DNA from: an uncultured Chloroflexia bacterium
Lineage (GTDB): Bacteria; Chloroflexota; Limnocylindria; Limnocylindrales; CSP1-4
Reading direction: 5' to 3'
DNA length: 64,000 bases
Assembly (NCBI GenBank): GCA_963834915.1
Contig: CAWIDI010000004.1
Span: 146,562-210,561, forward strand
A model generated the notes under the pieces. That model did no database searches and was not told the DNA's origin. It saw only the letters and a list, made by a program, of their open reading frames with translations. Positions 1,280 to 27,087 of the stretch are shown here, in pieces (the first letter of the stretch is position 1; the number at the start of each line of letters is the position of its first letter). A program made the translations under genes and the position numbers.

Positions 1280-1309
1280 CAACTTTCGTTGATATCAACC
1301 GCCGTTGAT
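1278..1309. promoter_or_regulatory. Tandem inverted-repeat operator: ATCAAC-N4-GTTGAT, twice
   Basis: Sequence is ATCAACtttcGTTGATATCAACcgccGTTGAT. The two units share a central GTTGATATCAAC palindrome. The site overlaps the -10 element and the ArsR start codon (TTG 1305 / ATG 1308). Confidence 0.55.
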
Positions 1310-1670
1310 GCGACGCCCCCAGGAGTCCCCCGAGACCGTGCCGACCCCAGCGCACATCCGCACGACCATCGCGTCGATCGTCATCCAGCCCGATGACCTG
1401 CGCGACCTGCGCGCCTTCCACAAGGCCCTCGCCGACGTGAACCGCCTGCGCATCGTCCGGCGGCTGGCCGAGGGCGACGCGTCGATCCGCGAGCTCATCG
1501 CGCACGTGGGCCTGAGCCAGCCGCTCGTCAGCCATCACCTCAAGCGCCTCCGCACCGCCGGGCTCATCCAGAGCCATCGTGTCGGCCGTGAGACCATCTG
1601 CAGCCTTCGGCCCGAGGCCTTCGGCGAGGTCGCCGAGCGCGAGCGCGCCATCCTCGGCCTAGCCAGCTAG
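1305..1670 (+). CDS. ArsR/SmtB-family metalloregulatory transcriptional repressor
   Basis: The 121-aa ORF carries a wHTH signature ([51 protein letters not shown]). It is divergent from the efflux pump. Confidence 0.85.
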
Positions 1671-1691: not shown

Positions 1692-2330
1692 ATGACCATC
1701 TCCAACGACTCCCGCGACCGCGTCAAGAAGACCTTCGAGCCGATCGCGCTCGCGATGGGCCGCGCCGGCCTGACGCCGAACGCCCTGACCCTGATCGGGT
1801 TCGGGATCACGACCGTCGGCGCCGTCCTGGTCGGCCTCCAGCTCTGGATCGTCGGCGGTCTCGTCGTCTTCGTGGGCGGGGTCTTCGACATGTTCGATGG
1901 CACGCTCGCCCGGGCGACCGGCAAGGCGAGCCGGCTGGGCGCCTTCATGGACTCCACCTTCGACAAGGCCGGCGAGATCATCGTCTTCCTCGGCGTCATC
2001 GCCGGGCTCGAGGCCGCGGGCGCCACGGACGTGCCGATCCTCGTGGCCGCCTCCGCGATGGGCGCCTCGGTCATGGTCAGCTACGCCCGCGCCAAGTCCG
2101 ACGCCCTCGGCTACTCGGCCGGGATGGGGCTGGCCTCGGTGGGGATCATGCCGCGCGAGGTCCGCCTCGTCATCATCTCGCTCGGGATCGTCCTCTCGGG
2201 GACGAGCATCGGCACCACGGCCATCCAGTTCGCCCTCGGGGTCGTCCTCGTCGGCGCCGTCATCACCATCGTCCAGCGGATCCTGTACGTCCGCGGCCAG
2301 GATCAGCAGCAAACCACCGGGACCAAGTAG
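1692..2330 (+). CDS. pgsA1: CDP-alcohol phosphatidyltransferase, likely phosphatidylinositol-phosphate synthase
   Basis: Carries the motif [30 protein letters not shown], i.e. D(x2)DG(x2)AR...G(x3)D(x3)D. It is a multi-TM protein. The PI specificity is inferred from the adjacent ino1, acyltransferase and pimA-like genes. Confidence 0.75.
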
Positions 2331-2347
2331 GAGCAACGGAGAACGAC

Positions 2348-3589
2348 GTGAGCAAGAACGGCAGCAACGGCAAGAACGGCTCGACGCCGACCAACACCTG
2401 GGCAGGCGCCGGTCGCCGCGGCGACGGCAAGATCCGCGTAGCGATCGTCGGCGTCGGCAACTGCGCGAGCAGCCTCGTCCAGGGGCGCTACTACTACGAG
2501 GACGCCAAGGAGGACGACTTCGTCCCCGGGCTGATGCACGTCAACCTGGGCGGCTACCACGTCCGCGACATCGACTTCGTGGCGGCCTTCGACATCGACA
2601 AGAACAAGGTCGGCAAGGACCTGTCCGAGGCGATCTACACGAAGCCGAACAACACCTTCGTCTTCCAGCAGGTCGCCGCGACCGGCGTGACCGTCGAGCG
2701 CGGCATGGTCCACGACGGCCTCGGCAAGTACCTCAGCCAGATCATCGAGAAGGCGCCCGGGGAGACCGCCGACATCGTCGGCATCCTCAAGGAGCGCGAG
2801 GTCGACGTGATGGTCTCCTACCTGCCGGTCGGCAGCGAGGAAGCCACCAAGTGGTACGCGGAGCAGGCCCTCGCCGCCGGCGTCGGCTTCGTGAACGCGA
2901 TCCCGGTCTTCATCGGCCGCGAGCCGTACTGGCAGCGCCGCTTCGCCGACGCCGGCCTGCCGCTCATCGGCGACGACATCAAGAGCCAGGTCGGCGCGAC
3001 CATCAGCCACCGCGTGCTCACCCGCCTGTTCATGGACCGCGGCGTCCGCCTGGACCGCACCTACCAGCTGAACTTCGGCGGCAACACGGACTTCCTGAAC
3101 ATGCTCGAGCGCGAGCGCCTCGAGTCCAAGAAGATCTCGAAGACCAACGCGGTCACCTCGATGCTCGACTACGAGCTCGACGACGAGGACATCCACGTCG
3201 GCCCGAGCGACCACGTGCCGTGGCTCAAGGACCGCAAGTGGTGCTACATCCGGATGGAGGGCACCACCTTCGGCGACGTGCCGCTCAACGCCGAGCTCAA
3301 GCTCGAGGTCTGGGACAGCCCCAACAGCGCCGGCGTCATCACCGACGCGATCCGCTGCCTGAAGCTGGGCCTCGACCGCGGGCTCAAGGGCACGCTCGTG
3401 GCCCCGTCGAGCTACTTCATGAAGAGCCCGCCGCAGCAGATCCACGACGACATCGCGTTCAACCGGGTCGAGGCGTTCATCCGCGGCGAGGACGACGAGA
3501 CCCTCGTCGGCACCGAGAAGCTGGTCAAGCGGACCTACCGCAAGCTCGCGGGGACGAAGGCCAAGGTCGCGACCGCCGCCGCGAAGTGA
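2348..3589 (+). CDS. ino1: myo-inositol-1-phosphate synthase
   Basis: The 413-aa ORF has an NAD-binding N-terminus ([21 protein letters not shown]) and is conserved along its length ([21 protein letters not shown]...). Confidence 0.9.
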
Positions 3590-4650
3590 CCGAAGGGGAG
3601 CGCGGACCCGCCGTCCCGAGTCCGCGCTCGCGCCGGCTCGAGGCACCGCATCGACGCGGGGGCAGCAGCCCCCGCGTCGTCGAGCGTCTAGCCCTCATCG
3701 GCTATCGCTCGACGGCGTGGATCCTGTCGGTGGTGTCGCCGCGCCTCGCGGCCGCACTCATCGGCCGCTTCTCGCAGCTCTCCTACCTGCTCTGGCCCAC
3801 CAAGCGACACTGGTCCAACCAGAACTACGGCCACGTCCTGGGGCTGCCGCCGGGCGACCCGCGGGTGCGCCGCCTTGCGCTGCGCGCCTACTACGAGTAC
3901 GGCCGCTACCTCGTCGAGCTCATGCGCCTGCCGTCGCGGCCGCCGGGCGAGGTCGCCGACCTGGTGCCGGACCTGGACGCCGAGACCATCCGCGACCAGT
4001 GGCACGGCGCGGACGGCGGCGGCCTGATCTTCGCGGTCGGCCACGTCGGGAACAACGAGGCGGTGGCCGCCGCGATCGCCCGGCACAGCCTGCCGATCAG
4101 CGTCGTCGCCGACGACTCCTCGTTCCCGGAGCTGTTCGACCTGCTCCGCCGGCAACGCGAGGCATGGGGAGTGAAGGTCGTCGCGTGGCGCAACCTGCGC
4201 GAGATCTTCGCGGTGCTGCGCCGTCGCGAGATGCTGGCTCTGCTCATCGACTGGGGCTACCGCGAGGACGGGATCCCGGTGACGCTGTTCGGTGCCTGGA
4301 CGACGCTCCCCGCCGGGCCGGCGACCCTCGCCGCGCGGACGAAGTCCCGGATCCTGCCGATCTCGATCCGCCGCCGCGCGGACGCGTGCTTCGACGTCTC
4401 GTGGCCGGCGCCCATCGACCTCGCCTCGGACGATCCGGCCGAGCTCCAGCGCGCGACGCAGGCCCTGGCCGACTGGCTCGCCGGGAACATCGCGGCCGCA
4501 CCGGAGCAGTGGTACAGCTTCAAGCCGATCTGGCCGGCGACCGCCTGGGAAGCGGCCGAGCTCGAGCGCCGCGCCGGCGAGATGCAGGCTGGCCGGCCCG
4601 ATCCTGGCCCCGGGCTGGCCCACGCGCCGCGCGAGGTCGCGAACCCGTGA
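3586..4650 (+). CDS. Lysophospholipid/lipid A-type acyltransferase (HtrB/PatA-like), copy 1
   Basis: This is the C-terminal part of track ORF 1897..4650 (...[19 protein letters not shown]...[40 protein letters not shown]...[10 protein letters not shown]). The proposed GTG start at 3586 overlaps the ino1 stop (GTGA). The start is uncertain. Confidence 0.7.
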
Positions 4651-5582
4651 GCTCGCTCGCGCGCCGGCTCCGCGGCCGGGCCCTCATCGCAGCATCGTGG
4701 CTGGCGTGCCACCTGCCCGAGGGTCCGCAGGTGCGGCTCGCCATCCTGGCCGGCGACGTCTGGTACCGGCTCGCTCCCGATCGCGCGGCCCAGGCGCGGC
4801 GCAACCTCCGGCGCGTCGCCACGTCGCTCGCGGAGCGCGGCCGCGGCAGTCCGGCCGTTCGCGCGGCGGCCACAGATCCGCGAGCGCTGGAGCGCCTCGT
4901 CAAGTCGGCCTTCCGGCACAGCGCGCGGTACTACCTCGAGGTGGCGCGGACGCCGGCGCTGCGGCCGGGCGACCTGGAGGGCCGGCTCCTCGTCGAGACG
5001 CCCGAGGTCATCGAGGCGGCCTTCGGCTCGAAGCAGGCCGTGATCTTCGTCGGGCTCCATTTCGGGGCGATCGAGCTGCCGGCACTCTTCCTGGCGGCAC
5101 GAGTCGGCGGGGCGGTCGCACCGATGGAGACCATCGACGACGCCGCGCTCCAGGCCTGGTTCGTGCGGACGCGCGGCGCGGCGGGGATCCGCATCGTCGG
5201 GCTGCGCGAGGCCCGCCGCGAGCTGCTCGCCGCGCTGCGTGCCGGCACCCCGGTCGGCCTCGTCGGGGACCGCGACCTGACCGGCGGCGGGATGCCCGTC
5301 GAGCTCTTCGGGGCGTCGGCGCAGCTGCCGCTCGGCCCGGCGATGCTCGCGGTCGAGAGCGGGGCGCCGCCGTACGTCGTCGGCGTCCGGCGGGCGGGGG
5401 TCGGGCGCTATCGTGGACGCCTCGCAGCGGTGCACGTGCCAGGGACGGGGACGCGCCGGGAACGGGTCGAAGGGACGATGAAGGGGCTGGCAGCCGAGTT
5501 CGAACGGGTCATCGAGGACGCGCCCGACCAGTGGTGGGCGGTCTTCTTCCCGATCTGGCCGGACCTCGAGGCCGTGGCATGA
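4647..5582 (+). CDS. Lysophospholipid/lipid A-type acyltransferase (HtrB/PatA-like), copy 2
   Basis: This is the C-terminal part of track ORF 3717..5582 ([10 protein letters not shown]...VIFVGLHFGAIELPALF...GLVGDRDLTGGGMPVELFGASAQLPLGPAMLAVESGAPPYVV...DQWWAVFFPIWPD). GTG 4647 overlaps the upstream stop (GTGA). Confidence 0.75.
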   Translation: MSSLARRLRGRALIAASWLACHLPEGPQVRLAILAGDVWYRLAPDRAAQARRNLRRVATSLAERGRGSPAVRAAATDPRALERLVKSAFRHSARYYLEVARTPALRPGDLEGRLLVETPEVIEAAFGSKQAVIFVGLHFGAIELPALFLAARVGGAVAPMETIDDAALQAWFVRTRGAAGIRIVGLREARRELLAALRAGTPVGLVGDRDLTGGGMPVELFGASAQLPLGPAMLAVESGAPPYVVGVRRAGVGRYRGRLAAVHVPGTGTRRERVEGTMKGLAAEFERVIEDAPDQWWAVFFPIWPDLEAVA

Positions 5583-6397
5583 CCGAGCCGTCCGCCGAGC
5601 CCGTCCGGCCGGGTCGCGCCGACCTCCACATCCACACGGTCGCCTCCGACGGGACCGCGTCCGTGACCCAGATCCTCGACCACGTCGCGGCCAGCGGCAT
5701 GCTCGATGTCATCGCGATCGCCGACCACGAGCGGATCGACGCGGCGCTCGCGGCGCGGGCCATGGCGCGAGACCGCGGCCTGGCGCTGGAGGTCATCGTG
5801 GGCGAGGAGGTGACGACCCTCGGCGGCCACCTCCTGGCGCTCTACCTGGAGGAGCCGGTCCGCTCCTATCGCTCGCTGCGCACGACCATCGCGGCCGTCC
5901 ACGACGCCGGCGGCCTCGCCATCCCGGCCCACCCGCTCGTCCCGTACCCGCTCTGCGCGCAGGGACGGACGCTCCGCCGGCTCCTCGACGACCCCGACCC
6001 GCGCGTCCACCCGGACGCCCTCGAGACCTTCAACCCCACCGCCCTCGGGCGACCCCTCCACGACCGCGTCGTCCGGTTCGCCGACGAGCACGGCCTCGCC
6101 CACATCGGCAACAGCGACGCCCACGCCCTGGACGCGATCGGGGTGGGCTGGACGTCGTTCGAGGGACGGACCGCCGCCGACCTGCGGGCGTCGATCGCGT
6201 CGGGCACGACCGAGCATCACGGCACGTTCCACGACACGACGGGTCAGCTCGGGACCTTCGGCGAGCAGCTGCGCAAGCGCCGCCGCGACGCCCGCGACGA
6301 GCTCGTCGGCCGCCTCCGCCGCGACGGGACCGGCCGCGACCACGGCTACCCCGGCGGCCGCGCCCGCCCGCCGCGCTTCGACGAGGGCGCCCGGTGA
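5579..6397 (+). CDS. PHP-domain metal-dependent phosphoesterase
   Basis: N-terminus is MTEPSAEPVRPGRADLHIHTVASDG, with later ...AIADHE..., ...IPAHP... and ...NSDAH..., a typical PHP His/Asp pattern. The ATG overlaps the upstream stop (ATGA), and its own stop overlaps the pimA-like GTG (GTGA). Confidence 0.8.
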   Translation: MTEPSAEPVRPGRADLHIHTVASDGTASVTQILDHVAASGMLDVIAIADHERIDAALAARAMARDRGLALEVIVGEEVTTLGGHLLALYLEEPVRSYRSLRTTIAAVHDAGGLAIPAHPLVPYPLCAQGRTLRRLLDDPDPRVHPDALETFNPTALGRPLHDRVVRFADEHGLAHIGNSDAHALDAIGVGWTSFEGRTAADLRASIASGTTEHHGTFHDTTGQLGTFGEQLRKRRRDARDELVGRLRRDGTGRDHGYPGGRARPPRFDEGAR

Positions 6398-7635
6398 AGA
6401 TCGGCCTCGTCTGCCCGTACATCTACCCGGAGGCCGGGGGCGTCGCCCAGCATGTCCGCTTCCTGTACGAGAACCTCCGCCAGGCGGGCCACGATGTCCG
6501 GATCATCACCGCCAGCCACGGCCCGCAGCGGTCGTCAGAGGGCGACATCCTGCGCATCGGCGTGGGCTTCTCGATGCCCACCAACGGGTCGGTCGGGACG
6601 CTCACGTTCTCGCCGCGCTATCTCAGCCAGGTCCGCGCGTTGCTGGCTCGCGAGCGATTCGACGTGCTCCACTTCCACGAGCCCTTCGTCCCGTTCCTGT
6701 CGCTGTTCCTCCTCCGCGAATCGACCAGCGTCAACATCGCGACGTTCCACGCCTACGCGGGCTTCTCGCCGTCGTACGAATTGGGGAGCCGGCTGATGCG
6801 CCGCCACGCGGCGCGGCTCCACGGGCGCATCGCGGTCAGCGCGGCCGCCCGCCACTTCATCGACCGGTTCTTCCCCGGCGACTACAAGGTCATCCCCAAC
6901 GGCGTCGACATCGCCCGCTTCGCCAACGCCGTCCCGATCTCGCGCTGGCAGGACGACGCGCCGAACCTGCTGTTCGTCGGTCGCCACGAGCCGCGGAAGG
7001 GCCTGCTGGACCTGCTGAAGGCGCAGCGCATGCTGCGCAAGACCGGCCACGGGACGCGATTGCTGATCGTGGGCTCGGGTCCCCAAGAGCGCGAGGCGCG
7101 CCGCTACGTGGCCACACGTGGCCTCCAGGGGGTCGAGTTCCTGGGTCGCGTCAGTGACGCCGAGAAGGCCCAGCTCTACCGGACCGCGCGGGTGTTCGTC
7201 TCGCCCGCCACCGGCGGCGAGTCGTTCGGGATCGTGCTGCTCGAGGCGATGGCCGCCGGGACGCCCATCGTCTGCTCGGACATCCATGGCTACAAGGGCG
7301 TGGTCCGGCGCGACCGCGAGGGCCTGCTGGTCCCGCCGCATCAGCCGAAGGAGCTCGCGACCGCGATCGCGCGGGTGCTCGAGGAGCCGGGGCTGGCCGA
7401 GCGCATGGGCGCCGCCGGGCGGGAACGCGCCGAGGACTTCAGCTGGCCGCGCGTGACCCTCAAGGTCGAGGAGTACTACGGATTCGTCATCCGCCGGCTC
7501 GCGGCGGCGGGCCAGCTCCCGGCCGGGTTCAACGCCCCGATCCCTCAGGCGCCGCCGGTCCGCGCCAGGCTGTCCGTGTCGTCAGGGGCCGGCTCGCCGG
7601 ACGCCAGCGACAGCCTCCAGACCGAGGTCGAGTAG
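6394..7635 (+). CDS. pimA: GT4 glycosyltransferase, PimA-like phosphatidylinositol mannosyltransferase
   Basis: N-terminus is MKIGLVCPYIYPEAGGVAQHV, with the GT-B C-terminal motif ...ATGGESFGIVLLEAMAAGTPIV. The operon context is the same as the mycobacterial pgsA1-patA-pimA cluster. The last 91 nt overlap the convergent giant gene. Confidence 0.8.
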   Translation: MKIGLVCPYIYPEAGGVAQHVRFLYENLRQAGHDVRIITASHGPQRSSEGDILRIGVGFSMPTNGSVGTLTFSPRYLSQVRALLARERFDVLHFHEPFVPFLSLFLLRESTSVNIATFHAYAGFSPSYELGSRLMRRHAARLHGRIAVSAAARHFIDRFFPGDYKVIPNGVDIARFANAVPISRWQDDAPNLLFVGRHEPRKGLLDLLKAQRMLRKTGHGTRLLIVGSGPQEREARRYVATRGLQGVEFLGRVSDAEKAQLYRTARVFVSPATGGESFGIVLLEAMAAGTPIVCSDIHGYKGVVRRDREGLLVPPHQPKELATAIARVLEEPGLAERMGAAGRERAEDFSWPRVTLKVEEYYGFVIRRLAAAGQLPAGFNAPIPQAPPVRARLSVSSGAGSPDASDSLQTEVE

Positions 7636-25995: not shown

Positions 25996-27087
25996 ATGAG
26001 TGCGTACAAGGAGTTCACGGGCAAGACGGTCGAAGAGGCCCTGCGCCTGGCGCGCGAGGAGTTCGGGGCCGAATTCCAGGACCTCGACTTCGAGGTGCTG
26101 AGCCCCGGCAGCCGCGGCGTCCTCGGCATGGGCGCCGAGCCGGCCCGGATCGTGGCCGCGCCGCGCGCCGCTCTCGGAGGTGCCGCGCCCAAGCGCGAGG
26201 CGGCCGCGTCGACGCCGCTGCCGATCCAGCCGCCGCGGGACGACCGGCCGCGGACCGACGACCGCCCGCCTCGTCGCGACGACCGCTCGGTCCGCCACGA
26301 CGATCGCGGTCCACGCGACACGTATCCCCCGCGAGACGCCCGGCCGCCTCGCCCGGACAGTGGCGCCCCGCAGACCCCGCAGACGGGCGCCCCGCAGGGA
26401 GGCGCCCCGCAGACGGCCGCCCCGCAGAAGACCGCCCCGCAGGCCGACGCTCGGCCGCCGCGTCCCCCGCGCCGCGACGCCCGTCCGCCACGCACCGACG
26501 ACCGCGCTCCGCGCTCCGACGCCGGCGGCGGCCTGTCCGCATCCGAGGTCGCCGAGGTGACCGCGGCCCGCGGGTCCCTGGCCTCGGAGCGAGCCGAGCT
26601 GGAAGCGGCGGAGGCCTCGCCCGAGGCGCTCGCGGCCGGCCAGCGGATCCTCGAGCAGCTGATGACGCACCTCGGGTTCGCCGTCAAGGTCGAGGTCGAG
26701 TCCGGCGAGACGAGCCGCCTGAACGTGGTCGGCGAAGGCGACGAGCGCGATGCGCTCGGCGCGCTCATCGGCCGCAAGGGCGAGCGCCTCTCGGCGCTGC
26801 AGCACCTCGTCAACCTGATGCTCTCGAAGGAGATGGGGGCCTGGACCCGGGTCCTCGTCGACGTCGAGGACTATCGCGGCCGTCGCGAGCGGCAGTTGCG
26901 GGACCTCGCCGAGCGGGCCGCTGCCCGGGTGGTCGAGACCGGCAAGATGCTCCAGCTGGAGCCGATGCCGGCCCTCGAGCGACGCTGGATCCACCTGACG
27001 CTGCGCGATCACGCGGGCGTCGCCACGCAGTCGATCGGCGAGGAGCCGAACCGGCGCGTCGTCCTCGTCCCGCGGGTCGGCGCCTGA
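25996..27087 (+). CDS. jag: Jag/KhpB-like RNA-binding protein (Jag_N, KH, R3H) with a long Pro/Arg/Asp-rich linker
   Basis: N-terminus MSAYKEFTGKTVEEALRLAREEFG. The C-terminus has a KH domain (GALIGRKGERLSALQHLVN) and an R3H domain (ERRWIHLTLRDHAGVATQSIGEEPNRRVVL). Confidence 0.85.
   Translation: MSAYKEFTGKTVEEALRLAREEFGAEFQDLDFEVLSPGSRGVLGMGAEPARIVAAPRAALGGAAPKREAAASTPLPIQPPRDDRPRTDDRPPRRDDRSVRHDDRGPRDTYPPRDARPPRPDSGAPQTPQTGAPQGGAPQTAAPQKTAPQADARPPRPPRRDARPPRTDDRAPRSDAGGGLSASEVAEVTAARGSLASERAELEAAEASPEALAAGQRILEQLMTHLGFAVKVEVESGETSRLNVVGEGDERDALGALIGRKGERLSALQHLVNLMLSKEMGAWTRVLVDVEDYRGRRERQLRDLAERAAARVVETGKMLQLEPMPALERRWIHLTLRDHAGVATQSIGEEPNRRVVLVPRVGA
26362..26445. repeat. Imperfect tandem approximately 15-nt repeats (gNcgccccgcagNNN) encoding GAPQ-type low-complexity linker
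   Basis: Units are ggcgccccgcagacc, ggcgccccgcaggga, ggcgccccgcagacg, gccgccccgcagaag and accgccccgcaggcc. They lie inside jag. Confidence 0.7.

What the first reader, a model, noticed from the sequence alone, without database searches (positions are those of the whole stretch)
5579..6397. PHP phosphoesterase translationally coupled inside a PI/PIM operon: candidate for the unassigned PI-phosphate phosphatase step
Six same-strand genes run from 1692 to 7635: CDP-alcohol phosphatidyltransferase, ino1, two acyltransferases, a PHP hydrolase and a pimA-like GT4. They are joined by 4-nt start/stop overlaps: GTGA at 3586, GTGA at 4647, ATGA at 5579 and GTGA at 6394.

An inositol-1-phosphate synthase directly next to the phosphatidyltransferase fits the bacterial route. 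In that route CDP-DAG plus inositol-1-P gives PI-phosphate, which must be dephosphorylated before mannosylation by PimA.

To my knowledge that phosphatase has no firmly assigned gene in Actinobacteria. The only hydrolase in this operon is the PHP protein (DLHIHTVASDG..., His/Asp ligands throughout). PHP enzymes are typically phosphomonoesterases or phosphodiesterases. The mycobacterial cluster, as I recall it, has no such gene at this position.
Basis: partly seen in the sequence, partly recalled or inferred. Interest (0 to 1): 0.62.

Follow-up and report, generated by a model that had tools for sequence, protein, structure and literature searches.

The report
Candidate PHP-type phosphatidylinositol-phosphate phosphatase
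A small metal-dependent phosphatase-like gene sits inside an operon for inositol membrane lipids in a soil Chloroflexota bacterium and stays with those genes across several bacterial classes, so it is a strong but unassayed candidate for the step that turns phosphatidylinositol phosphate into phosphatidylinositol, whose enzyme is known only in Bacteroides.

Summary
Six + strand genes (1692-7635) encode a PIP-synthase-type CDP-alcohol phosphatidyltransferase, inositol-phosphate synthase, two PatA-like acyltransferases, a 272-aa PHP protein (5579-6397) and a PimA-like GT4.

The host is Chloroflexota (Ca. Limnocylindria), not an actinobacterium.

- **The enzyme.** It keeps all nine ligands of a trinuclear PHP centre. 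It folds confidently (pLDDT 96) as a minimal PHP barrel with a long basic C-terminal helix, has no membrane segment, and is under purifying selection.
- **Family placement.** It is not a member of the histidinol-phosphatase, polymerase-PHP, RNase AM or pAp-phosphatase families.
- **Gene context.** In 81 related loci the gene lies with a PIP synthase in 58 and with a PimA-like GT4 in 64, through at least five gene orders. In Ktedonobacteria only ArsR-PHP-PIPS remains.
- **The synthase.** All 59 linked synthases keep the two arginines that bind the inositol phosphate group, so a phosphatase is needed.
- **Literature.** The literature still calls this enzyme unidentified outside Bacteroides (PgpA type). 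EphE is only proposed in mycobacteria.

Best reading, about 55%: a non-orthologous PIP phosphatase feeding PimA. No activity has been measured. This scan has noted the same idea in many other genomes.

The parts
1305..1670 (+). ArsR/SmtB-family HTH regulator immediately upstream of the operon
   Evidence: PF01022 57 bits and NF033788 80 bits, above its cutoff of 55. An ArsR homologue precedes the cluster in most related loci and stays in the minimal ArsR-PHP-PIPS unit of Ktedonobacteria.
1692..2330 (+). CDP-alcohol phosphatidyltransferase of the PIP-synthase (PgsA1/AIP-synthase) type
   Evidence: PF01066. Best NCBIfam hits are AIP synthase (126 bits) and PIP synthase (123 bits), both below their cutoffs, against 27 bits for PgsA. 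Best PDB hits are RsPIPS 5d92 and MtPgsA1 6h53. Mt S132/K135/R155/R195 align to S130/R133/R158/R196. The two arginines are invariant in 59 PHP-linked homologues.
2348..3589 (+). myo-inositol-phosphate synthase (MIPS/Ino1)
   Evidence: PF01658 126 bits. TIGR03450 539 bits, below its cutoff of 638. 77-97% identical in related loci.
3586..4650 (+). PatA/HtrB-like acyltransferase 1
   Evidence: PF03279 99 bits. NF005919 (PIM acyltransferase) 123 bits, below its cutoff of 209. The only PDB hits are PatA.
4647..5582 (+). PatA/HtrB-like acyltransferase 2
   Evidence: PF03279 90 bits. NF005919 122 bits. The only PDB hits are PatA.
5579..6397 (+). PHP/PHP_C metallophosphoesterase (272 aa, P0001), the candidate PIP phosphatase
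   Evidence: PF13263 47.5 bits (cutoff 21.3). PF02811 25.2 bits (cutoff 26.4). H17, H19, D24, H50, E77, H84, H118, D180 and H182 are conserved in 72-77 of 77 homologues. AF2 pLDDT 96. Foldseek places it among PHP folds. dN/dS 0.13-0.22. Synteny.
6394..7635 (+). PimA-like GT4 mannosyltransferase, overlapping the PHP stop by 4 nt
   Evidence: PimA 4n9w/2gej 218 bits, E 1.7e-63, over residues 1-363; the next PDB hit scores 94 bits. It lies directly downstream of PHP in 64 of 81 loci, 42 of them with a 4-nt overlap.
7545..12980 (-). 1811-aa PMT/GT-C-family glycosyltransferase, convergent and overlapping the 3' end of the GT4 gene. Possibly associated, not shown to be part of the operon.
   Evidence: PF02366/PF16192 on the orthologue in L001. 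Conserved at this position in about 28 Limnocylindria loci.

Best explanation
The 272-aa PHP protein is most likely a cytoplasmic, membrane-peripheral phosphomonoesterase. It would remove the inositol-ring phosphate from phosphatidylinositol phosphate (PIP) to give phosphatidylinositol (PI).

Proposed sequence of steps:
1. [quoted passage not shown]
2. The PgsA1-type synthase joins inositol phosphate to CDP-diacylglycerol to give PIP.
3. The PHP enzyme hydrolyses the phosphomonoester. Its strongly basic C-terminal tail would hold it at the anionic membrane surface. Its trinuclear metal centre would be H17/H19/E77/D180, E77/H84/H118 and D24/H50/H182; this assignment is by analogy with solved PHP phosphatases.
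4. PI passes to the PimA-like mannosyltransferase, which is translated from the overlapping next gene.
5. The two PatA-like enzymes acylate the product.

Shown here: gene content, active-site conservation, fold, synteny and the PIP-synthase signature. Inferred: the substrate, the order of steps and the membrane binding.
For: (1) The neighbouring synthase is of the PIP-synthase type. Both arginines that bind the phosphate of inositol phosphate in MtPIPS/RsPIPS are present, and they are invariant in all 59 PHP-linked homologues. [quoted passage not shown] A dephosphorylation step is therefore required.

(2) The PHP protein is the only hydrolase in the operon, and all nine PHP metal ligands are conserved.

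(3) Of 81 loci holding a relative, 58 carry the PIPS, 64 the PimA-like GT4, 58 a PatA-like gene and 46 the MIPS; 71 carry at least one of these. Several gene orders occur: ArsR-PIPS-MIPS-AcT-AcT-PHP-GT4, MIPS-AcT-AcT-PHP-GT4-PIPS, MIPS-PHP-GT4-PIPS and AcT-PHP-GT4-PIPS.

(4) In Ktedonobacteria only ArsR-PHP-PIPS remains, with independent gene calls for the cultured Ktedonospora formicarum. PI is a major polar lipid of the related cultured genus Dictyobacter (PMC12453558).

(5) On the PHP tree, PI linkage is strongly clustered (5 changes against 11.5 in shuffles, 0 of 500 as low). Most unlinked copies are long-branch paralogues.

(6) The protein has no hydrophobic segment (max KD19 1.34). It has an acidic body (median charge -7) and a basic tail (median +6), conserved despite little tail sequence conservation.

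(7) Selection is purifying, dN/dS 0.13-0.22, as tight as on GT4.

(8) The literature calls the PIP phosphatase unidentified in mycobacteria and archaea. The only assigned enzyme, BT_1525, belongs to the unrelated PgpA family. The mycobacterial candidate EphE is likewise predicted to associate with PimA.
Against: - No member of this subfamily has a measured activity. The argument is guilt by association plus active-site conservation.
- The closest solved structures are uncharacterised (3e38, 2anu) or act on nucleic acids or nucleotides (RNase AM, Cv1693), at 18-26% identity and TM about 0.5-0.74.
- One PHP-fold neighbour, PsfC, is an oxidative di-iron enzyme and not a hydrolase.
- A basic tail would also suit RNA binding.
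- About 10 of 81 loci show the gene unlinked (for example L058). One clade has Q in place of the first histidine.
- I could not test whether the genome lacks PgpA-like or EphE-like alternatives, because the genome search tools were shut.
- The RNA evidence is weak: only short metatranscriptome contigs from relatives.
Confidence: 0.55

Rival explanations
1. The PHP enzyme is a lipid-linked inositol-phosphate phosphatase that acts after PimA. PimA mannosylates PIP, and the phosphate is then removed from mannosyl-PIP. This would follow the synthase/phosphatase logic of sucrose-phosphate, trehalose-phosphate and mycothiol (MshA/MshA2) pathways. It might also free the hydroxyl for one of the two acyltransferases.
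For: The tightest and most persistent neighbour of PHP is the GT4: 64 of 81 loci, 42 with a 4-nt overlap. A PHP-GT4 pair persists without an adjacent PIPS in Aggregatilineales. Single-ORF PHP-GT4 fusions occur (L046, L025, P0126, P0268). There are two PatA-like genes where mycobacteria have one.
Against: In Ktedonobacteria the PHP stays with PIPS and no GT4 is nearby. From published work recalled, mycobacterial PimA uses PI in vitro. The fusions may be indel artefacts of long-read or high-GC assemblies.
Confidence: 0.12
2. It is a soluble sugar- or inositol-phosphate phosphatase with an IMPase-like role. It would make free inositol or another dephosphorylated precursor for the pathway.
For: PHP enzymes include small-molecule phosphomonoesterases such as histidinol-phosphate phosphatase. 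MIPS lies directly upstream of PHP in three loci (MIPS-PHP-GT4-PIPS).
Against: The synthase carries the inositol-phosphate-binding arginines, so hydrolysing inositol phosphate would starve it. When the cluster splits, PHP stays with PIPS, GT4 and AcT rather than with MIPS (46 of 81 loci against 58-64; Ktedonobacteria). The conserved basic tail has no obvious role for a soluble substrate.
Confidence: 0.1
3. It is a nucleotide or nucleic-acid phosphoesterase, like RNase AM or the pAp phosphatase. It would sit in the operon for regulatory or housekeeping reasons unrelated to the lipid chemistry.
For: The best sequence hits in PDB and NCBIfam are RNase AM/TrpH and Cv1693-type enzymes. A basic tail could bind RNA.
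Against: Similarity covers only the N-terminal 70 residues or so. Scores are far below family cutoffs (53 against 375; 40 against 400). Only 185 columns (TMq 0.52) of the RNase AM PHP domain superpose. Conserved synteny through several rearrangements is not expected for an unrelated housekeeping gene.
Confidence: 0.1
4. It is a lipid phosphodiesterase (PI/PIM-specific phospholipase C/D-like turnover enzyme) or a non-hydrolytic metalloenzyme on the PHP scaffold.
For: PHP enzymes include phosphodiesterases. PsfC shows the fold can do oxidative chemistry.
Against: All nine ligands of the hydrolytic trinuclear site are kept. A degradative enzyme translationally coupled inside a biosynthetic operon would be futile.
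Confidence: 0.06

Closest known systems
BT_1525, the PIP phosphatase (PIPPh) of Bacteroides thetaiotaomicron (PgpA family; Heaver et al. 2022, PMC9246714)
   Same: Proposed to do the same reaction (PIP-DAG to PI-DAG). It is encoded in the same cluster as MIPS and a PIP synthase. The pathway logic is the same.
   Different: The fold and family are unrelated: PgpA against PHP. BT_1525 has genetic evidence (PIP accumulates in the deletion), while the PHP protein has none. The downstream product in Bacteroides is inositol sphingolipid, not PIM-type glycolipid.
Mycobacterial pgsA1-patA-pimA operon, with EphE as proposed PIP phosphatase (bioRxiv 10.64898/2026.07.15.738315)
   Same: PgsA1-type PIP synthase, PatA-type acyltransferase and PimA are clustered. 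The candidate phosphatase is linked to PimA: predicted interaction in mycobacteria, translational coupling here.
   Different: From established knowledge of Rv2609c-Rv2613c, the mycobacterial operon has no PHP gene. EphE is an alpha/beta-hydrolase encoded elsewhere. Here there are two acyltransferases, and ino1 is inside the operon.
TrpH/YciV group: RNase AM (PDB 7ug9, 9etk) and Cv1693 3',5'-nucleoside bisphosphate phosphatase (2yb1)
   Same: PHP barrel, HxH...D...H N-terminal motifs and a trinuclear metal ligand set.
   Different: Only residues 13-82 align by sequence. NCBIfam scores are 53 against a cutoff of 375, and 40 against 400. Overall TM is about 0.5. This protein is shorter in the catalytic part and has a basic C-terminal helix instead.
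Uncharacterised minimal PHP proteins TM0559 (2anu) and BVU_3505 (3e38)
   Same: Best structural matches (E about 1e-11, TMt up to 0.74), with the same compact PHP barrel.
   Different: 18-20% identity. Their functions are unknown, so they give no functional transfer.

Membership tests
PHP superfamily (trinuclear metal-dependent phosphoesterases, PF02811/PF13263) | Distorted (beta/alpha)7 barrel fold | tested here: met
   AF2 model has pLDDT 96 and pTM 0.92. The top 40 Foldseek PDB matches are all PHP-fold proteins at probability 1.00.
PHP superfamily (trinuclear metal-dependent phosphoesterases, PF02811/PF13263) | Nine metal ligands: HxH, D, H, E, H, H, DxH | tested here: met
   H17, H19, D24, H50, E77, H84, H118, D180 and H182 are present and conserved in 72-77 of 77 homologues.
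PHP superfamily (trinuclear metal-dependent phosphoesterases, PF02811/PF13263) | Pfam model scores above gathering thresholds | tested here: inconclusive
   PF13263 PHP_C 47.5 bits, above 21.3. PF02811 25.2 bits, just below 26.4.
RNase AM / TrpH (NF047791) and 3',5'-nucleoside bisphosphate phosphatase (NF041577) | Full-length match above the equivalog cutoff | tested here: not met
   53.3 bits against a cutoff of 375, and 39.9 against 400. Only residues 14-81 align.
Histidinol-phosphate phosphatase, PHP type | Sequence or structure closest to HisK-type PHP | tested here: not met
   NF004981 15 bits against a cutoff of 117. Foldseek 2yxo E 1.8e-4, TM 0.39, far behind the other PHP groups.
DNA-polymerase-associated PHP (PolIII alpha / PolX) | PHP domain fused to a polymerase, or closest to such domains | tested here: not met
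   Stand-alone 272-aa protein. PolX model 20 bits against a cutoff of 426. PolIII PHP domains rank below the stand-alone PHPs.
PgpA-type PIP phosphatase (BT_1525) | Homology to the PgpA family | tested here: not met
   No PgpA family among the Pfam or NCBIfam hits at E <= 0.01. Any shared function would be non-orthologous.
PIP phosphatase (functional class) | Hydrolysis of PIP to PI, or PIP accumulation on loss | not testable with these tools
   Needs an enzyme assay or genetics.
PIP synthase (neighbour gene 1692-2330) | CDP-AP signature D(x)2DG(x)2AR...D(x)3D plus the two phosphate-binding arginines (Mt R155, R195) | tested here: met
   D66, D69, G70, R74, D87, D91, R158 and R196 are invariant in 59 sequences. 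NCBIfam equivalog scores are below cutoff (123 against 170), so membership rests on the motifs.
PimA (neighbour gene 6394-7635) | Full-length similarity to characterised PimA, clearly above other GT4s | tested here: met
   218 bits, E 1.7e-63, over residues 1-363 against M. smegmatis PimA. The next GT4 scores 94 bits. Acceptor specificity was not tested.

The most novel reading that the evidence does not exclude
This PHP/PHP_C subfamily is a dedicated phosphatidylinositol-phosphate phosphatase. It would be the first PHP-fold enzyme acting on a membrane-lipid headgroup. It would also be a third, independently recruited solution to this step, after the PgpA type in Bacteroides and the proposed EphE in mycobacteria. 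It would work at the cytoplasmic membrane face, held by its basic tail, and hand PI directly to PimA as a two-enzyme unit. That would explain the near-universal 4-nt coupling and the occasional fusion of the two genes.
Probability: 0.45. Interest if true: 0.75.

Novelty: new variant of a known kind. Interest (0 to 1): 0.6.

Why it matters
Bacterial and archaeal phosphatidylinositol is made through a phosphorylated intermediate. The enzyme that removes that phosphate has been called "as-yet unidentified" or "long-sought" since 2009-2010. Only Bacteroides has an assigned gene.

A concrete, conserved and soluble candidate in Chloroflexota makes the step directly testable. Cultured Ktedonobacteria carry the gene, and a related cultured genus (Dictyobacter) is reported to make PI. 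Suitable tests are recombinant protein on PI-3-P, and reconstitution of PI synthesis in E. coli.

If confirmed, it would add lipid-headgroup dephosphorylation to the chemistry of the PHP superfamily. It would also show that this step has been solved several times by unrelated folds. That would help annotate thousands of "TrpH-like" or "PHP domain-containing" proteins in soil metagenomes.

Tried and rejected
- **Single-sequence AlphaFold model.** It was useless (pLDDT 43) and was replaced by an alignment-based model.
- **Profile search with A1.** The aim was to reach other phyla, but it returned only Limnocylindria-like proteins. Spread beyond Chloroflexota was therefore not tested. The two loci labelled Actinomycetes/Actinomycetota and the one labelled Verrucomicrobiia are MAG contigs. 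One of them (L041) is nearly identical to a Chloroflexi MAG copy (L052), so they are not evidence for other phyla.
- **Long proteins holding a PHP match.** These are fusions with the neighbouring GT4 or acyltransferase. I did not count them as Rosetta-stone evidence, because a 1-nt indel at a 4-nt overlap would create them.
- **Metatranscriptome contigs.** They cover the operon only as short pieces from 85-95% relatives, so they are not evidence of co-transcription.
- **Genome-wide absence of PgpA/EphE/IMPase homologues.** This could not be checked because the genome search and the fetch from genomes were shut.
- **Exact-sequence look-ups.** They failed for L060, L081 and P0504.
- **Readings rejected.** Histidinol phosphatase, polymerase PHP and RNase AM membership were rejected on scores. 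The IMPase reading was ranked low because the synthase needs inositol phosphate.
Full report
**1. Observation**

The + strand between 1692 and 7635 holds six genes, preceded by an ArsR-family regulator gene at 1305-1670. The six are:
- 1692-2330, 212 aa;
- 2348-3589, 413 aa;
- 3586-4650, 354 aa;
- 4647-5582, 311 aa;
- 5579-6397, 272 aa;
- 6394-7635, 413 aa.

ATGA at 5579-5582 and GTGA at 6394-6397 can be read directly. The GTG starts at 3586 and 4647 overlap the stops at 3589 and 4650. An independent gene caller placed the same overlapping starts in a relative (L001).

Pfam, NCBIfam and PDB sequence searches give these assignments:
- **1692-2330.** A CDP-alcohol phosphatidyltransferase whose best models are archaetidylinositol-phosphate synthase and PIP synthase.
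- **2348-3589.** A myo-inositol-phosphate synthase.
- **3586-4650 and 4647-5582.** Two HtrB-family acyltransferases whose only PDB relatives are mycobacterial PatA.
- **5579-6397.** A PHP_C/PHP protein.
- **6394-7635.** A GT4 matching M. smegmatis PimA over its whole length at 218 bits, against 94 bits for the next structure.

Named hits and record titles place the window in Candidatus Limnocylindria, phylum Chloroflexota, not Actinobacteria. The window is origin-proximal: dnaA, dnaN, yidC, jag, gyrB and gyrA were all found.

**2. The PHP protein itself**

An alignment of 34 diverse relatives, and a second of 77 locus-derived orthologues, show H17, H19, D24, H50, E77, H84, H118, D180 and H182 conserved in 72-77 of 77 sequences. 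This is the full ligand set of trinuclear PHP hydrolases. E149, N152, S179, T192 and R203 are conserved as well.

With the alignment, AlphaFold gives a confident model (pLDDT 96, pTM 0.92). It has a compact barrel (residues 12-215) followed by a long helix (220-247).

Foldseek against the PDB ranks matches in this order:
- uncharacterised minimal PHPs first (3e38; TM0559 2anu, TMt 0.74);
- then RNase AM, PsfC, BAD_1165 and Cv1693;
- polymerase PHP domains lower;
- histidinol-phosphate phosphatase and YcdX much lower.

Identity is only 18-26%. By sequence, only residues 13-82 or so align to RNase AM and Cv1693. NCBIfam equivalog scores are far below cutoffs (53 against 375; 40 against 400).

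So this is a PHP-superfamily protein that belongs to none of the characterised subfamilies. One caveat: PsfC, a structural neighbour, is an oxidative di-iron enzyme, so the fold alone does not prove hydrolysis.

The protein has no hydrophobic segment (max 19-residue Kyte-Doolittle mean 1.34). dN/dS against four orthologues is 0.13-0.22, comparable to the PimA-like gene.

Across orthologues the catalytic body is acidic (median net charge -7). The tail of about 50 residues is basic (median +6), although its sequence is poorly conserved. This fits electrostatic docking on an anionic membrane, but it would also fit RNA binding.

**3. Context across genomes**

A full HMMER pass over 1.84 billion representatives found 4686 relatives (E <= 1e-3), 144 of them at E <= 1e-30.

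One scan of 185,579 species genomes returned 80 loci. Nearly all are Chloroflexota: Limnocylindria, Dehalococcoidia, Anaerolineae, Thermoflexales, Thermomicrobia and Ktedonobacteria, including Ktedonobacter racemifer DSM 44963.

I ran tblastn with the window's proteins against these loci plus L001, 81 loci in all. A PIPS homologue was found in 58, the PimA-like GT4 in 64, PatA-like genes in 58 and MIPS in 46. At least one of these was found in 71.

The gene order differs between lineages:
- ArsR-PIPS-MIPS-AcT-AcT-PHP-GT4 in Limnocylindria;
- MIPS-AcT-AcT-PHP-GT4-PIPS, MIPS-PHP-GT4-PIPS and AcT-PHP-GT4-PIPS in Dehalococcoidia, Anaerolineae and Thermoflexales;
- only ArsR-PHP-PIPS in Ktedonobacteria (five loci).

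The Ktedonobacteria arrangement was confirmed with independent gene calls and Pfam hits in the cultured Ktedonospora formicarum.

The PHP stop overlaps the GT4 start by 4 nt in 42 loci. One locus scored as unlinked (L072, Aggregatilineales) in fact has an overlapping PHP-GT4 pair. L058 is truly unlinked.

On a maximum-likelihood tree of the PHP proteins, the PI-linked state needs 5 changes, against 11.5 for shuffled labels (0 of 500 shuffles as low). Most unlinked copies are long-branch sequences.

**4. Is a phosphatase needed?**

Clarke et al. (PMC4634129) showed that two arginines (Mt R155 and R195) bind the phosphate of inositol phosphate. [quoted passage not shown]

In the HMMER alignment to MtPgsA1 they correspond to R158 and R196 of the window protein. 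S132 aligns to S130 and K135 to R133.

In 59 PHP-linked synthases the catalytic aspartates, R155, R158 and R196 are invariant. The product is therefore expected to be PIP.

PI itself is a major polar lipid of cultured Ktedonobacteria (Dictyobacter; PMC12453558). A PIP phosphatase must therefore exist in these organisms.

**5. What is known**

Heaver et al. 2022 identified BT_1525, a PgpA-family protein, as the PIP phosphatase of Bacteroides. They stated that the enzyme had not been identified before.

A 2022 review lists the archaeal and bacterial enzyme as unidentified.

A July 2026 preprint still calls it "as-yet unidentified" and "long-sought" in mycobacteria. It proposes the alpha/beta-hydrolase EphE, predicted to associate with PimA, without biochemical proof.

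Four searches aimed at a PHP-family lipid or PIP phosphatase found no such paper.

Inside this scan the same idea has been noted many times: 185 AI notes in at least 160 genomes. These are not independent evidence. I wrote down my reading before opening them.

**6. Interpretation**

The best-supported reading is a non-orthologous PIP phosphatase acting at the cytoplasmic face and feeding PimA (about 0.55). The arguments against the rivals are:
- **IMPase-like role.** It would remove the synthase's own substrate. PHP also follows PIPS and GT4 rather than MIPS when the cluster splits.
- **Nuclease or nucleotide role.** It does not explain synteny kept through several rearrangements.
- **Action after mannosylation.** This remains open, because the GT4 is the tightest neighbour.

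None of this replaces an assay.

**7. Verdict**

I class it as a new variant of a known kind: a known reaction and a known fold, in a combination that has not been published.

Noticed in passing
window 1305-1670 (+); L049-L051, L060, L062, L085: An ArsR/SmtB-family regulator gene precedes the inositol-lipid operon. It stays directly upstream of PHP even in the minimal ArsR-PHP-PIPS unit of Ktedonobacteria. This suggests a conserved dedicated regulator of PI synthesis with an unknown signal.
   Followed up: partly
window 7545-12980 (-): An 1811-aa PMT/GT-C-family glycosyltransferase is convergent with the operon. Its 3' end overlaps the PimA-like gene by 91 nt. The arrangement is conserved in about 28 Limnocylindria loci. 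It could extend the PIM-like lipid or O-mannosylate proteins.
   Followed up: partly
window 12917-14527 (+) and 14524-15948 (+): A TMEM260-like O-mannosyltransferase (PF11028) and an overlapping GT2 glycosyltransferase lie next to the PMT-like gene. Together with PimA this makes a possible mannosylation neighbourhood.
   Followed up: no
window 3586-4650 and 4647-5582 (+): There are two divergent PatA-like acyltransferases in tandem (about 28-33% identical to each other's orthologues), where mycobacteria have one in the operon. The pair is conserved in most related loci.
   Followed up: partly
L058, L063, L068, L076 (PHP genes): A well-supported clade of four PHP homologues has Q in place of the first histidine of the HxH motif (ADLQVHT). 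Two are PI-linked and two are not. The effect on metal binding is unknown.
   Followed up: no
L084 7028-7811 (Dictyobacter formicarum): Downstream of ArsR-PHP, the PIPS region matches only in two pieces at 38% and 32% identity, and it is called as four tiny ORFs. It may be a decayed copy or a poorly assembled stretch. Ktedonospora formicarum (L085) has an intact gene there.
   Followed up: partly
L046 9974-11935; L025 10031-11482; proteins P0126, P0248, P0268, P0228: PHP and the PimA-like GT4 are read as a single ORF. These may be real fusions or indel artefacts at the 4-nt overlap.
   Followed up: partly
window 2305-3630: In four soil and ice metatranscriptomes, contigs that lie on the MIPS gene reach summed depths in the thousands, against tens for the other operon genes. 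This probably reflects many organisms sharing this very conserved gene.
   Followed up: no
window 20637-27087 and 46286-52325: The window is origin-proximal: dnaN, dnaA, yidC, jag/KhpB, then gyrA and gyrB. The inositol-lipid operon lies about 15 kb from dnaA.
   Followed up: no
window 61054-62223 (+): The ORF holding ribosomal protein L21 (domain at residues 152-252) is 389 aa long. Either the start is over-called or the protein has long extensions.
   Followed up: no
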